A stretch of 63,819 nt of DNA, counting the filler, from an uncultured archaeon (GTDB lineage Archaea > Iainarchaeota > Iainarchaeia > Iainarchaeales > 1-14-0-10-31-34): assembly GCA_964442255.1 (NCBI GenBank). It is 9 parts of 9 records of this genome, joined end to end, with 100 filler letters (N's around TTAATTAATTAA, not from the genome) between each part and the next. Parts side by side here need not be neighbours in the genome. Positions count along the whole stretch, not along the records: positions 10,412 to 20,242 come from CAYTYC010000033.1; 8 more parts are not named here. One strand, written 5' to 3'. Within the stretch, counting starts at the first letter, position 1; each line of letters begins with the position of its first letter. Position numbers and translations under genes: made by a program. Under the pieces are notes generated by a model. That model saw only the letters and a list, made by a program, of their open reading frames with translations, searched no databases and had not been told where the DNA came from. Below, one piece after another: positions 13,054 through 63,819 of this stretch.

Positions 13054-13324
13054 CTATTTTAGGAAGTTCTTCATTTTCCTGTTGTTAAGTTTATTTTTTA
13101 TTATTAATTTATATGGTTTTAGTTATTTATAAACGTTCCGCCTGCGTTTCCCGAAGTGTTTTACTCCCCTTGATGTGACACGCAATAAGAGGTTACTCGC
13201 CGGAGGAACTGTTAACAAAAAGAGGGCAATTAGTTGCCCCAAAGAATTACCTCAGATACAATTCAATTTATGCAGAAGCGGCAGGAAGGCAACAGTATTA
13301 AGCATTATCTTCTATTCATTTCTG

Positions 13325-13458
13325 TTGGCAATGACGATGTTAACACCTTCTGACCGGCTTAAGTGTGTGAGCGAAAGCGAGCTGGCGCCATGCGCAGTAT
13401 GGCATACTCTGCCACCGTGAGCAGACGGCGTGATGAATTAACTCAACCCTGAACCCAA
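13325..13458 (+). ncRNA. box C/D guide sRNA with a 76-nt hairpin insert between D' and C'
   Basis: C ATGACGA 13331-13337, 12-nt guide, D' CTGA 13350-13353, C' GTGATGA 13430-13436, 12-nt guide, D CTGA 13449-13452, TTGG/CCAA terminal stem. Confidence 0.7.
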
Positions 13459-13476
13459 TAAAATAAGTGATTCTAA

Positions 13477-13728
13477 ATGAAACAAAAAACAAAGATTTCG
13501 TTAGCAGCACTCGCACTTTTTTTAGCCCTCTTTGCCTGGGCGCCTTGGCTTGATGACCAAGCCATTCACGACAAGGTCTTCAGGGAAAGGGCGCACATAG
13601 ACGGAACAATGGACAAACAAACCGGCAAGCTTATTTGCGATTACAACGTGATGTGGTTTCCGTTTGGCAGGCATGTTGCAAGCTGCGAAGGCGGCTACTT
13701 TGTGACTTTTTTCGGACAAACTCTCTAA
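13477..13728 (+). CDS. small membrane-anchored hypothetical protein
   Basis: N-terminal TM helix, two Cys. Confidence 0.6.
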   Translation: MKQKTKISLAALALFLALFAWAPWLDDQAIHDKVFRERAHIDGTMDKQTGKLICDYNVMWFPFGRHVASCEGGYFVTFFGQTL

Positions 13729-31208: not shown

Positions 31209-31428
31209 CCCGCCTTAGCATAGTAGCCAATGCGTCCGGCTGTAGTTGTTTCAACCGGTTTTTTTTTGAACCGGTGTGCTTTGCTTCAGGGCAAAGCGGG
31301 CGCATAAACCCGAAAGCGGCGGTGAGCGAGGCGAAAGCCGAGCCAGTGCCATACGCCAGTATGGCACGTTCCACTGCCGGGAACAGCCGGCAACCGGAAG
31401 ATCCCCGGTGCAAATCCGGGAGGCGGGA
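31209..31428 (+). tRNA. tRNA-Tyr(GTA) with a 147-nt intron at 37/38 (31246-31392)
   Basis: Acceptor CCCGCCT/AGGCGGG-A, D stem GCAT/ATGC, anticodon stem TCCGG/CCGGA, loop CTGTAG|A, T arm CCCGG-TGCAAAT-CCGGG. Confidence 0.85.
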
Positions 31429-60196: not shown

Positions 60197-60540
60197 GAGC
60201 AAAGCGAAGGAGGTGGCATCTCAGTGCCGGCGGACGAAACCGCCAAACGCGGGCGAAGCGAGCAAATCTGCCTCAAGCGAAAGCGAGAGGCAGCCTCCCG
60301 GCACTCCCACCCGAAAGCATGGCACACTCCACTCCCGCGAGCAGGCGGGATTCCGCTGCCGGGAACAGCCGGCATACCGGACCTGCCCTATGGAATGGGC
60401 AAATGCAAACGCGTAGCGTGAGCAACAACCATGCGCTAGCATGGCTCCCTGCACTGCCGGCAGAAGCCGGCAACCGCGAGCGAAGCGAGCAACAACCATG
60501 CGCTAGCATGGCTCCCTGCACTGCCGGCAGAAGCCGGCAA
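60197..60540. repeat. GC-rich hairpin-module array abutting the tRNA-Pro 3' end
   Basis: 54-bp direct repeat at 60420-60473 and 60487-60540; GCGAAGC, CCATGCGCTAGCATGG and TGCCGGCAGAAGCCGGCA modules. Confidence 0.85.
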
Positions 60541-60541
60541 A

Positions 60542-60803
60542 TGGGGCCCCGGGGATTTGAACCCCGGTCTACACCACGTTGGAACGCTTTTTTCTTTTCC
60601 CACGGCTTTTCGCCGAAGGCGAGTTTTTTGATAAAACTTTTCCTTGCAAACCCAAAGGTTTGCGAGGCTCCGCAACGTTGGAAACCTGCGGGTTTCCGAC
60701 GCGTCGAAAAACCGAAGGTTTTTCAACGAAGCTTTGCTTTTACAAGGTTTCCAAAAAGTTTTTCCCCAAGGTGCAATGCTAGTCCAGGCTACACCAAGGC
60801 CCC
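60542..60803 (-). tRNA. tRNA-Pro(GGG) with a 187-nt BHB intron (60577-60763)
   Basis: GGGGCCT/GGGCCCC-A acceptor, GCACC/GGTGT anticodon stem, loop TTGGGG|T, BHB helix TTGG/CCAA with 3-nt bulges. Confidence 0.9.
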
Positions 60804-63673: not shown

Positions 63674-63819
63674 TGCCTGGCGAAACCGGCAAATGCGAGC
63701 AAACCTGCCTCCGGAGCAAAGCGAAGGAGGTGGCATCTCAGTGCCGGCGGACGAAACCGCCAAACGCGAGCGAAGCGAGCAACAACCATGCGCTAGCATG
63801 GCTCCCTGCACTGCCGGCA
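63674..63819. repeat. GC-rich hairpin-module array, same family and orientation as 60197-60540
   Basis: 63714-63768 is identical to 60197-60251, followed by the repeat unit of ~60475-60529. Confidence 0.88.

What the first reader, a model, noticed from the sequence alone, without database searches (positions are those of the whole stretch)
13325..13458. Box C/D sRNA whose D'-C' loop is filled by the same hairpin element as the tRNA-Tyr intron
Seen: C, D', C' and D boxes with two exact 12-nt guides (TGTTAACACCTT, ATTAACTCAACC). The 76-nt insert has GAGCGAAAGCGAGC, GCCATGCGCAGTATGGC and a CCGTGAGCAGACGG hairpin, in the same module order as 31324-31392 and 60478-60540. Known: archaeal C/D guides are about 12 nt and the D'-C' loop is normally short. 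Inference: the element occupies a functionally neutral loop of a second class of stable RNA.
Basis: partly seen in the sequence, partly recalled or inferred. Interest (0 to 1): 0.7.

Follow-up and report, generated by a model that had tools for sequence, protein, structure and literature searches.

The report
Ribosome-methylation guide RNA carrying a repeat
This is a genuine small guide RNA gene of a tiny archaeon, aimed at two sites in the catalytic heart of the ribosome, whose normally tiny middle loop holds a 76-base copy of a three-hairpin repeat that also sits in this genome's tRNA genes.

Summary
Observation confirmed; first reading supported. Window 13325-13458 (+) is a dual-guide box C/D sRNA gene of an Iainarchaeota-like MAG. 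The D' guide pairs with LSU rRNA so that the N+5 rule selects E. coli U2552 (A loop). The D guide selects G2581, 29 nt away.

The same guide pair recurs in 28 of 196 genomes of the order (0 control hits). D'-C' spacers are 4-16 nt in 15 of 215 genomes and 61-90 nt in 5 of 215. An insert-free paralog lies in the same genome (C43:27-84).

The 76-nt spacer belongs to a three-hairpin repeat family with 28 copies in this genome. A leave-one-out HMM finds it at E = 1.1e-8, and its hairpins covary (0 of 500 shuffles reach the observed values). The closest relatives of its ends are inserts in other guide RNAs, including a second one here on C44, not the tRNA-Tyr intron copy.

In 16 of 17 spacers of 12 nt or more, 5 of 6 long inserts among them, a stem abuts D' and stops 2 nt before UGAUGA. 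That is K-turn geometry, so the insert is an apical extension.

No bulge-helix-bulge splice motif was found and no RNA data exist, so whether the insert stays in the mature RNA is inferred. The scan had already noted the sister case (e1-7431371).

The parts
13296..13301 (+). TATA-like A/T box (TATTAA) about 35 nt upstream of the C box
   Evidence: a comparable A/T motif lies at -48 to -24 (seen at -32 to -39, one at -48) in 17 of 23 distinct homologous A modules. In 3 of the 6 without it (L003, L015, L018) the module is internal, so no promoter is expected. Promoter function is inferred.
13325..13328 (+). 5' strand of a weak terminal pairing (UUGG)
   Evidence: it can pair with CCAA 13455-13458. 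Homologs have clearer stems such as GGC/GCC and GGAC/GUCC.
13331..13337 (+). C box AUGACGA
   Evidence: The same variant box goes with the same guide in G015 and G086.
13338..13349 (+). D' guide, 12 nt, TGTTAACACCTT
   Evidence: 10 Watson-Crick pairs plus 1 G-U with LSU C17:6835-6845. The N+5 nucleotide is C17:6839 = E. coli U2552.
13350..13353 (+). D' box CUGA
13354..13429 (+). 76-nt insert: one copy of the three-hairpin repeat. Its parts are CCGG + CUUAAG linker; module 1 at 13367-13382; hairpin 2 at 13387-13403; linker; hairpin 3 at 13415-13428.
   Evidence: Homologs have 4-16 nt here.
13354..13356 (+). CCG directly after D'. It can pair with CGG 13426-13428 as the canonical stem of a C'/D' K-turn, leaving bulge C13429-G13430-U13431.
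   Evidence: the same register gives 3 bp or more in 16 of 25 distinct spacers, against 1, 2, 4 and 4 of 25 in other registers. It competes with hairpin 3 for 13426-13428.
13430..13436 (+). C' box GUGAUGA
13437..13448 (+). D guide, 12 nt, ATTAACTCAACC
   Evidence: 9 Watson-Crick pairs plus 1 G-U, contiguous, with LSU C17:6865-6874. The N+5 nucleotide is C17:6868 = E. coli G2581.
13449..13452 (+). D box CUGA
13455..13458 (+). 3' strand of the weak terminal pairing (CCAA)
31209..31428 (+). tRNA-Tyr(GUA) gene with a 147-nt intron (31246-31392). The 3' half of the intron (about 31324-31392) is a copy of the same repeat.
   Evidence: (fold z = -5.8).
60393..60545 (+). Two tandem copies of the repeat abutting the 3' end of a minus-strand tRNA-Pro gene
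63750..63819 (+). Truncated copy of the repeat at a contig end

Best explanation
Window 13325-13458 (+) is a working dual-guide archaeal box C/D sRNA gene with its own TATA-like box. With L7Ae, Nop5 and fibrillarin, all encoded in the genome, its D' guide should direct 2'-O-methylation of LSU rRNA at the position equal to E. coli U2552 (A loop). Its D guide should direct methylation of G2581 beside the peptidyl-transferase ring, 29 nt downstream.

The 76 nt between D' and C' are one copy of a three-hairpin structured repeat that is scattered through this genome. Most copies abut tRNA genes, and one lies inside the tRNA-Tyr intron. In the guide RNA the copy sits at the apex of the C'/D' motif. 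The 12-nt guide spacings are untouched. A short helix still abuts the D' box and ends exactly 2 nt before UGAUGA, so C'/D' can form a K-turn, or a three-way k-junction if hairpin 3 supplies the helix, and L7Ae can still bind.

The insert is therefore most likely carried in the mature RNA as a tolerated, outward-pointing expansion domain.

Shown: the boxes, spacing, complementarity, homologs with and without inserts, family membership and covariation of the hairpins. Inferred: transcription, methylation, K-turn folding and retention of the insert.
For: Targets:
- Both guides find their best rRNA match in LSU, 29 nt apart. The scores are 10.5 and 9.5, reached by 59 and 119 of 2000 shuffled guides anywhere in the rRNA.
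- Aligned to E. coli rrlH, the N+5 sites are U2552 and G2581.
- U2552 is a known C/D target in archaea and the A loop is a methylation hot spot (passages of PMC4644070 and PMC7994747).

Conservation:
- The C'-guide-D pattern is in 28 of 196 genomes of the order, with 0 hits of the reversed control.
- Both guides are kept in homologs.
- Spacers are 4-16 nt in 15 of 215 genomes and 61-90 nt in 5 of 215.

Machinery: fibrillarin, Nop5 and L7Ae-family genes are present. FtsJ/RrmJ gives only a partial 25-bit hit.

Insert:
- Leave-one-out HMM E = 1.1e-8.
- There are 28 copies with E < 1e-3.
- For hairpins 2 and 3, 87.2% of cells are paired, 11 of 15 pairs show double changes, and 0 of 500 shuffles reach the values. 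Slid controls give 28-44% paired.

Geometry: a stem of 3 bp or more from D'+1 to 2 nt before UGAUGA occurs in 16 of 25 distinct spacers, against 1, 2, 4 and 4 of 25 in other registers. That includes 16 of 17 spacers of 12 nt or more and 5 of 6 long inserts.

Selection: the box-plus-guide modules are identical or nearly so between this gene and G015, while flanks and the insert middle differ.

Assembly: two public contigs span the locus unchanged.
Against: - No RNA run holds the locus, so neither expression nor the mature size is known.
- The insert alone does not fold better than shuffles (z = -0.25), and the whole RNA does not either (z = +0.76).
- The proposed 3-bp C-stem competes with hairpin 3 for the same CGG.
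- The C box is a variant (UGACGA) and the terminal stem is weak.
- An insert-free paralog with the same two targets exists (C43:27-84), so this copy could be dispensable.
- Each guide's match alone is only moderately rare (3% and 6% of shuffles).
- Synteny is not conserved, so the short-spacer genes are homologs, not proven orthologs.
- G2581 is not a methylation site I could find documented.
Confidence: 0.6

Rival explanations
1. The insert is an intron-like segment removed from the precursor (splicing endonuclease plus ligase, or another nuclease). The mature guide RNA would then have a normal short loop and the repeat would be released, as it is with the tRNA-Tyr intron.
For: - The same family lies inside a tRNA intron that must be spliced.
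- The genome encodes EndA.
- Links between tRNA introns and C/D sRNAs, and circular sRNAs, are known in archaea (abstract of PMC9014305 in the listing; the tRNA-Trp intron sRNA is recalled).
Against: - A strict bulge-helix-bulge scan finds no motif spanning the insert.
- A relaxed scan near the boundaries in 4 insert-bearing homologs gives only candidates with a mismatch in the central helix, most also with irregular bulges, and none conserved between them.
- The ends of the insert instead fit the K-turn register of intron-less homologs.
Confidence: 0.15
2. The insert-bearing gene is a disabled duplicate on its way to decay. The insert-free paralog on C43 does the work and the repeat merely landed in a dispensable copy.
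For: - A paralog with the same two predicted targets exists.
- This copy has a variant C box and a weak terminal stem.
- Several relatives also carry two copies (G016, G021, G078, G093, G101).
Against: - D', C' and D boxes are perfect, and both guides pair better than those of the paralog. The paralog's D guide scores 8.5, a value reached by 936 of 2000 shuffles, and its D' box is CCGA.
- Box and guide modules are conserved against diverged flanks between genera.
- Insert-bearing genes persist in 6 genomes of 4 or more families for this guide pair, and in a second guide-RNA family.
- The K-turn register is kept.
Confidence: 0.15
3. The insert has been co-opted. Its conserved hairpins would form a protein- or RNA-binding domain that adds a function to the guide RNP, such as recruitment, stability or coupling to tRNA processing. 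Module 1 reads GYGAG-hairpin-CGAGC, which can form tandem sheared G-A pairs.
For: - Hairpins covary across 33 copies.
- The insert ends and hairpin 3 (CCGTGAGCAGACGG) are identical in guide RNAs of different families (G000, G015, G016, G086, G173, G174), while this genome's other copies use different stems.
- Two unrelated guide RNAs of this genome carry it.
Against: - Close homologs work with 4-8-nt loops.
- Hairpin 2 is freely exchanged between copies.
- The same hairpin-3 variant is common outside guide RNAs in family f13, so it is not specific to guide RNAs.
- No partner is identified.
Confidence: 0.1

Closest known systems
Canonical archaeal double-guide box C/D sRNAs, including those predicted to methylate LSU U2552 (Dennis et al. 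2015, PMC4644070; review PMC7994747; passages read)
   Same: C, D', C' and D boxes; two 12-nt guides; N+5 targets within 100 nt of each other in helices 90-93 of LSU rRNA; L7Ae, Nop5 and fibrillarin encoded.
   Different: The D'-C' 'variable loop' is 76 nt of structured repeat instead of a few nucleotides. C'/D' would be a K-turn or k-junction with a closed stem rather than a K-loop.
Earlier finding of this scan, e1-7431371: a C/D guide for the 16S decoding site with a ~73-nt hairpin domain, in the same genome
   Same: Same genome. The insert has the same 5' end (CCGGCTTAA), the same module 1 and the same 3' end (CTCTGCC.CCGTGAGCAGACGGCG), at the same D'-C' position. I found it independently at C44.
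   Different: It has other guides and targets and another hairpin 2. The present gene adds insert-free homologs and a paralog, the swapped-module form and the K-turn register test.
Circularly permuted C/D sRNA families (Pyrobaculum sR56/sR57; Lui et al. 2018, PMC6009581, passages read)
   Same: Homologs with the two guide modules in swapped order exist here too (L003, L015, L018).
   Different: G086 has the order B-insert-A, which is not a rotation of A-insert-B. The insert therefore entered, or was kept in, the internal loop in both arrangements.
k-junctions, K-turns with a third helix on the non-bulged strand (PMC4005666 and PMC10573300, abstracts from the listing)
   Same: If hairpin 3 supplies the helix before the 3-nt bulge, the rest of the insert branches from the non-bulged (D') strand, which is the k-junction topology.
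   Different: Known k-junctions are in TPP riboswitches. None is described in a guide RNA, and nothing here is structurally tested.
Archaeal BHB introns of tRNA, and intron transposition (recalled: Fujishima et al. 2010, Thermoproteales)
   Same: The same repeat family lies in a tRNA intron at 37/38, and in other tRNA introns according to earlier notes e1-1225923 and e1-1486762.
   Different: No BHB motif flanks the guide-RNA insert.
REP/PATE-type hairpin repeats mobilised by IS200/IS605-like Y1 transposases (recalled)
   Same: Short, hairpin-rich, strand-asymmetric units with no terminal inverted repeats, often in tandem. The genome has a Y1_Tnp+TnpB element and a solitary Y1_Tnp.
   Different: No copy flanks the solitary Y1_Tnp gene convincingly. 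Relatives show 12-38-nt flanking duplications, which that mechanism does not make.

Membership tests
Archaeal box C/D sRNA | C box RUGAUGA and D box CUGA near the ends | tested here: met
   AUGACGA (one deviation) at 13331-13337 and CUGA at 13449-13452. The same variant C box occurs in G015 and G086.
Archaeal box C/D sRNA | Internal D' and C' boxes | tested here: met
   CUGA at 13350-13353 and GUGAUGA at 13430-13436.
Archaeal box C/D sRNA | Guides of 10-12 nt between C and D' and between C' and D | tested here: met
   Both are exactly 12 nt. The length range is taken from PMC7994747.
Archaeal box C/D sRNA | Guide complementarity to rRNA or tRNA with a Watson-Crick pair at N+5 | tested here: met
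   A-U at C17:6839 (U2552) and C-G at C17:6868 (G2581); 11 and 10 contiguous pairs.
Archaeal box C/D sRNA | Short D'-C' loop forming a K-loop | tested here: not met
   The spacer is 76 nt, against 4-16 nt in 15 of 215 genomes. A closed stem plus a 3-nt bulge is possible instead.
Archaeal box C/D sRNA | Terminal stem juxtaposing C and D | tested here: inconclusive
   Only UUGG/CCAA with unequal offsets. Homologs have clean 3-4-bp stems.
Archaeal box C/D sRNA | Core proteins L7Ae, Nop5 and fibrillarin in the genome | tested here: met
Archaeal box C/D sRNA | Stable transcript, and methylation at the predicted sites | not testable with these tools
   No RNA run is listed for the locus.
BHB (bulge-helix-bulge) intron | Two 3-nt bulges separated by a 4-bp helix at the insert boundaries | tested here: not met
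   The strict scan finds none spanning the insert. The relaxed scan gives only candidates with a mismatched central helix, none conserved between homologs.
BHB (bulge-helix-bulge) intron | Splicing endonuclease present | tested here: met
   EndA domain at C19:20859-21119.
MITE / DNA transposon derivative | Terminal inverted repeats and a fixed-length target-site duplication | tested here: not met
   No direct repeat longer than 8 nt, and none adjacent, flanks the guide-RNA inserts. The ends CCGGCTTAAG and CAGACGGCG are not inverted repeats.
Three-hairpin repeat family of this genome (undescribed) | Module order GYGAG-hairpin-CGAGC / hairpin 2 / CTC..CTGCC linker / hairpin 3 with a 6-nt loop | tested here: met
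K-turn / k-junction at C'/D' | A helix, then a 3-nt bulge, then tandem G-A/A-G pairs from UGAUGA and CUGA | tested here: inconclusive
   The sequence register fits in 16 of 25 spacers, this one included.

The most novel reading that the evidence does not exclude
A covarying three-hairpin RNA/DNA element is an undescribed kind of mobile insert in Iainarchaeota. It settles in the apical loops of stable RNAs: tRNA anticodon loops, where it rides in introns, and the C'/D' loops of at least two unrelated methylation guide RNAs. One lineage of it has been kept inside guide RNAs across several families as a K-turn-compatible expansion domain, exchanging its middle hairpin with resident copies. Elsewhere the same element inserts with 12-38-nt duplications of its target, which no known archaeal transposition mechanism produces.
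Probability: 0.35. Interest if true: 0.75.

Novelty: new variant of a known kind. Interest (0 to 1): 0.55.

Why it matters
Archaeal C/D guide RNAs are regarded as minimal, tightly spaced molecules with a K-loop of a few nucleotides. This gene guides the most conserved ribose methylation of the large subunit (U2552). It keeps every spacing rule while carrying a 76-nt structured passenger, and relatives with short and long loops sit side by side.

That offers a natural experiment on what the C'/D' motif tolerates: K-loop, K-turn or k-junction. It also offers a handle on a repeat family that reshapes tRNA and guide-RNA genes in DPANN archaea. If the insert is retained, it is an expansion segment of a guide RNP. 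If it is removed, it is a new class of processed insert lacking a BHB motif.

Tried and rejected
- **Exact targets:** 12-nt targets in rRNA gave none. The pairing became clear only when end mismatches and G-U pairs were allowed.
- **Rfam:** there was no family for the sRNA or the repeat, at gathering or at E up to 10.
- **E. coli numbering:** BLAST of the LSU segment against E. coli genomes found no match. I fetched rrlH by accession and aligned it instead.
- **RNA evidence:** no RNA holder was listed. The DNA contigs only confirm continuity.
- **BHB scans:** the strict and relaxed scans gave nothing convincing. The first regex was wrong and was corrected.
- **Synteny:** there was none to separate orthologs from paralogs.
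- **Overlapping ORFs:** 13175-13420 (+) and 13340-13516 (-) have no Pfam match, so I treat them as spurious.
- **Link to a Y1 transposase:** the only nearby feature is a partial, weak element-like piece 830 nt from the solitary gene, and no reverse transcriptase was found.
- **tRNA origin of the insert's 5' end (CCGG-CUUAAG as an anticodon arm):** dropped, because the position that would be nucleotide 37 is G, C, C, U, C or U in the copies.
- **Spacers of 31-60 nt:** these were not scanned by pattern. They are known only from the loci (37-nt hairpin spacers in L011, L012, L027 and L032).
- **Literature:** the searches found no description of a long structured insert in an archaeal C/D sRNA loop, nor of this repeat. 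Subscription journals and supplements were not covered.
- **Timed-out script:** timed out and was rewritten.

Full report
**1. Setting**

The window is a string of contigs joined by runs of N. They come from a 1.28-Mb, 51-contig archaeal MAG that is 93.8% complete. The finding lies on contig C33, where window position minus 10411 gives the contig position. The genome's fibrillarin is closest (53-59% identity) to 'Candidatus Iainarchaeum' MAGs. That agrees with the label used in earlier notes of this scan.

**2.

Reading 13100-13700 gives these features:
- C box AUGACGA at 13331-13337
- D' guide TGTTAACACCTT at 13338-13349
- D' box CUGA at 13350-13353
- a 76-nt spacer at 13354-13429
- C' box GUGAUGA at 13430-13436
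- D guide ATTAACTCAACC at 13437-13448
- D box CUGA at 13449-13452
- a weak terminal pairing, UUGG 13325-13328 with CCAA 13455-13458

Default ARAGORN and Rfam see only a tRNA-Gln in the window. Rfam at E up to 10 has no family for this RNA or for the repeat. The two ORFs that overlap the locus have no Pfam match. Two public contigs from two runs span 13150-13650 without a difference. They may come from the source sample, so they show continuity of the insert rather than independent occurrence.

**3. It is a real guide RNA**

No exact 12-nt complement exists in the rRNA. With end mismatches and G-U pairs allowed, the best rRNA match of each guide falls in the LSU, and the two matches are 29 nt apart.
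- The D' guide pairs with C17:6835-6845 (10 Watson-Crick pairs plus 1 G-U).
- The D guide pairs with C17:6865-6874 (9 Watson-Crick pairs plus 1 G-U).

Shuffled guides reach these scores anywhere in SSU plus LSU in 59 and 119 of 2000 trials. Each match alone is therefore only moderately rare. Adjacent placement of the two is what double-guide sRNAs typically show; PMC4644070 reports 262 of 489 sRNAs as double guides within 100 nt (passages).

Aligning the LSU with E. coli rrlH puts the N+5 nucleotides at U2552 and G2581. [quoted passage not shown] The same paper predicts it to be sRNA-guided in five archaeal species, and the review PMC7994747 states that U2552 and/or G2553 is always modified. 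I found no record of a methyl group at G2581. That G2581 neighbours G2582, G2583 and U2585 of the peptidyl-transferase ring is recalled, not tested.

The genome encodes fibrillarin, Nop5 and two L7Ae-family proteins. FtsJ/RrmJ gives only a 25.1-bit hit over 66 of 181 profile positions. A protein-only route to Um2552 is thus not evident, but it is not excluded either.

**4. Homologs**

The pattern C' box - TTAACNCAAC - D box occurs in 28 of 196 genomes of the order (33 places). The reversed control pattern has no hit. Where the contig allows, the upstream sequence carries the second module, GTTAACACC, as well.

Across the phylum, in the order A module - spacer - B module:
- 15 of 215 genomes have 1-30 nt between D' and C'; observed lengths are 4-16 nt.
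- 5 of 215 have 61-90 nt: G000, G015, G016, G076 and G167.
- The 31-60 nt range was not scanned. Four loci have a different 37-nt hairpin there.

Three genomes have the modules in swapped order (L003, L015, L018). One of them, G086, has a 74-nt related insert between them. Swapped orders are known in Pyrobaculum as circular permutations (PMC6009581). However, B-insert-A is not a rotation of A-insert-B, so the insert was gained, or kept, in the internal loop of both arrangements.

Within genus g2, G012, G013 and G014 have 5-, 8- and 4-nt spacers, while G015 and G016 have 71-72-nt inserts. The window's own genome also has an insert-free paralog at C43:27-84. It has the same two predicted targets, a CCGA D' box and a weaker D guide. 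Gene neighbourhoods are not conserved, so I call these genes homologs; orthology is unproven.

A TATA-like A/T box lies about 35 nt upstream here. One occurs at a similar distance in 17 of 23 distinct A modules, and three of the six without it are internal modules.

**5. The insert belongs to a structured repeat family**

- Iterated nhmmer finds 28 copies with E < 1e-3 in about 14 places.
- A model built without this copy still finds it at E = 1.1e-8; the best of 500 shuffles scores 5.4 bits.
- Most copies abut tRNA genes called by ARAGORN with introns, or contig ends: C47, C9, the end of C1, C24 (twice), C28, C12 and C3.
- One copy fills the 3' half of the 147-nt intron of the tRNA at 31209-31428.
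- In an alignment of 33 copies (28 from this genome plus 5 guide-RNA inserts of relatives), hairpins 2 and 3 pair in 87.2% of cells. Eleven of 15 pairs show changes on both sides (57 cells), and 0 of 500 shuffles reach any measure. Slid controls give 28-44% paired. Related sequences can inflate the shuffle test, but the slid controls are not affected by that.
- Module 1 reads GYGAG-(short covarying hairpin)-CGAGC, which could form tandem sheared G-A pairs. This is read from the sequences and was not tested.

**6. Whose relative is this copy?**

A second guide RNA with the same kind of insert lies on C44. Its insert has the same 5' end (CCGGCTTAA), the same module 1 and the same 3' end including CCGTGAGCAGACGG, but a different hairpin 2. 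This is the case noted earlier in the scan as e1-7431371.

The 14-nt hairpin-3 variant occurs 22 times in 14 of 215 genomes, with 0 control hits. Its contexts fall into three groups:
- the A-loop guide family: G000, G015, G016 and G086
- the other guide family: G000 C44, G173, G174, and the C30 and C45 contig starts
- tRNA-linked or intergenic sites, mainly in family f13

The other copies in this genome use different hairpin-3 stems, while hairpin 2 of this insert is of the resident CCATGC type. The insert is thus a mosaic: guide-RNA-lineage ends around a resident-type middle. The explanation by old residence with partial conversion is my inference.

**7. Why the insert can be tolerated**

In 25 distinct spacers of the family, I counted stems that start directly after D' and end a fixed number of nucleotides before UGAUGA. 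With 2 nt left, which makes a 3-nt bulge together with the U, 16 of 25 spacers give 3 bp or more. Offsets of 0, 1, 3 and 4 nt give 1, 2, 4 and 4 of 25.

All but one of the 17 spacers of 12 nt or more fit the 2-nt register, including 5 of the 6 long inserts. G076 fits at offset 4. Here the stem is CCG 13354-13356 with CGG 13426-13428, and the bulge is C-G-U. This is the register of a K-turn (definition from the abstract of PMC5061560, listing), not of a K-loop (PMC7994747).

The CGG is also the 3' strand of hairpin 3. If hairpin 3 forms, it provides the helix before the same bulge, and the rest of the insert branches from the D' strand. That is the k-junction topology (abstracts of PMC4005666 and PMC10573300). 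In either case the insert extends from the apex, and the 12-nt spacings are unchanged.

Thermodynamic folding does not single the insert out: z = -0.25 for the insert and +0.76 for the whole RNA.

**8. Splicing is not supported**

EndA is present. A strict BHB scan finds no motif across the insert. A relaxed scan near the boundaries in four insert-bearing genes gives only candidates with a mismatch in the central helix, most also with irregular bulges, and none is shared between the genes. My strict scan did not find a canonical BHB at the tRNA-Tyr intron either, so its sensitivity for this organism's substrates is uncertain.

**9. How the element moves is open**

- The guide-RNA inserts have no terminal inverted repeats and no adjacent duplication.
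- In relatives, 5 of 12 non-guide copies carrying the CCGTGAGCAGACGG hairpin are followed within 7 nt by a direct repeat of 12-38 nt of the upstream flank: G098 (38 and 25 nt), G111 (22), G106 (15) and G110 (12). This fits the duplicated tRNA ends reported in e1-7428788.
- The genome has an IS200/IS605-type TnpA+TnpB pair, a solitary Y1_Tnp gene and no RVT_1 hit.
- I found no convincing link between the repeat and the solitary gene.

**10. Verdict**

This is a genuine A-loop guide RNA that is a new variant of a known kind. Its C'/D' loop is occupied by a member of an apparently undescribed structured repeat, most likely carried as an expansion that preserves the K-turn register.

My literature searches found no description of such inserts or of the repeat. 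They cover only open-access text and preprints, and no supplements were read.

Noticed in passing
G000:C43:27-84 (outside the window): Insert-free paralog of this guide RNA. It has terminal stem GGC/GCC, C box AUGAUGA, guide GGTTAACACCTG, D' box CCGA, a 9-10-nt mini-hairpin spacer, C' box AUGACGA, guide TTTAACCCATCC and D box CUGA. It has the same two predicted targets, with a mismatch in the D guide.
   Followed up: partly
G000:C44:1-135 (minus strand); also the first 55 nt of C30 and C45: Second C/D sRNA with a 73-nt insert whose ends are nearly identical to those of this insert. Three contigs start or end inside it, so the repeat breaks the assembly and the gene may exist in more than one copy.
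   Followed up: partly
Loci L061, L071, L066, L072, L077 (G098, G111, G106, G110): Short copies of the repeat (about 50 nt) are followed by a direct duplication of 38, 25, 22, 15 or 12 nt of the sequence upstream of the insert. In one case the duplicated sequence is a tRNA 3' end. No known archaeal insertion mechanism gives such long, variable duplications.
   Followed up: partly
L018 (G086), L003 (G009), L015 (G079): Homologs with the two box-guide modules in swapped order, one of them with the repeat between the modules.
   Followed up: partly
L011, L012, L027, L032 (G021, G045, G110): A different 37-nt hairpin (…AAGCTTTTTGCTTGCAAAAAG…) fills the same D'-C' loop in three other genomes. It forms a 9-bp stem in the K-turn register.
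   Followed up: no
G000:C2:38934-38945 (+): The only exact 12-nt complement of the D guide outside the gene itself. It lies in the sense strand of a 319-aa ORF. About 0.15 such matches are expected by chance in this genome, so it is probably chance.
   Followed up: partly
G000:C14:704-788: A copy of the repeat bracketed by CCGG on both sides inside an unidentified GC-rich structured region (…GGTGCCGG[copy]CCGGTGCCAGC…). The host RNA was not identified.
   Followed up: no
window 31209-31428: The tRNA with the 147-nt intron is called Asp(GTC) by ARAGORN but reads as Tyr(GUA) with C1-G72 and A73. Its intron 3' end repeats the anticodon-stem sequence CCGG several times, and no canonical BHB was found by my scan.
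   Followed up: partly
G000:C9:47136-47477 (-) and C21:4219-5660 (+): A solitary Y1_Tnp (IS200-like) gene and a TnpA+TnpB pair in a 1.28-Mb DPANN genome. No reverse transcriptase domain was found.
   Followed up: partly
G000:C17:1481-3155: The SSU rRNA match spans 1675 nt for a 1478-position model, so it carries about 200 nt of extra sequence. I did not look at where this lies or whether it is the repeat or an intron.
   Followed up: no
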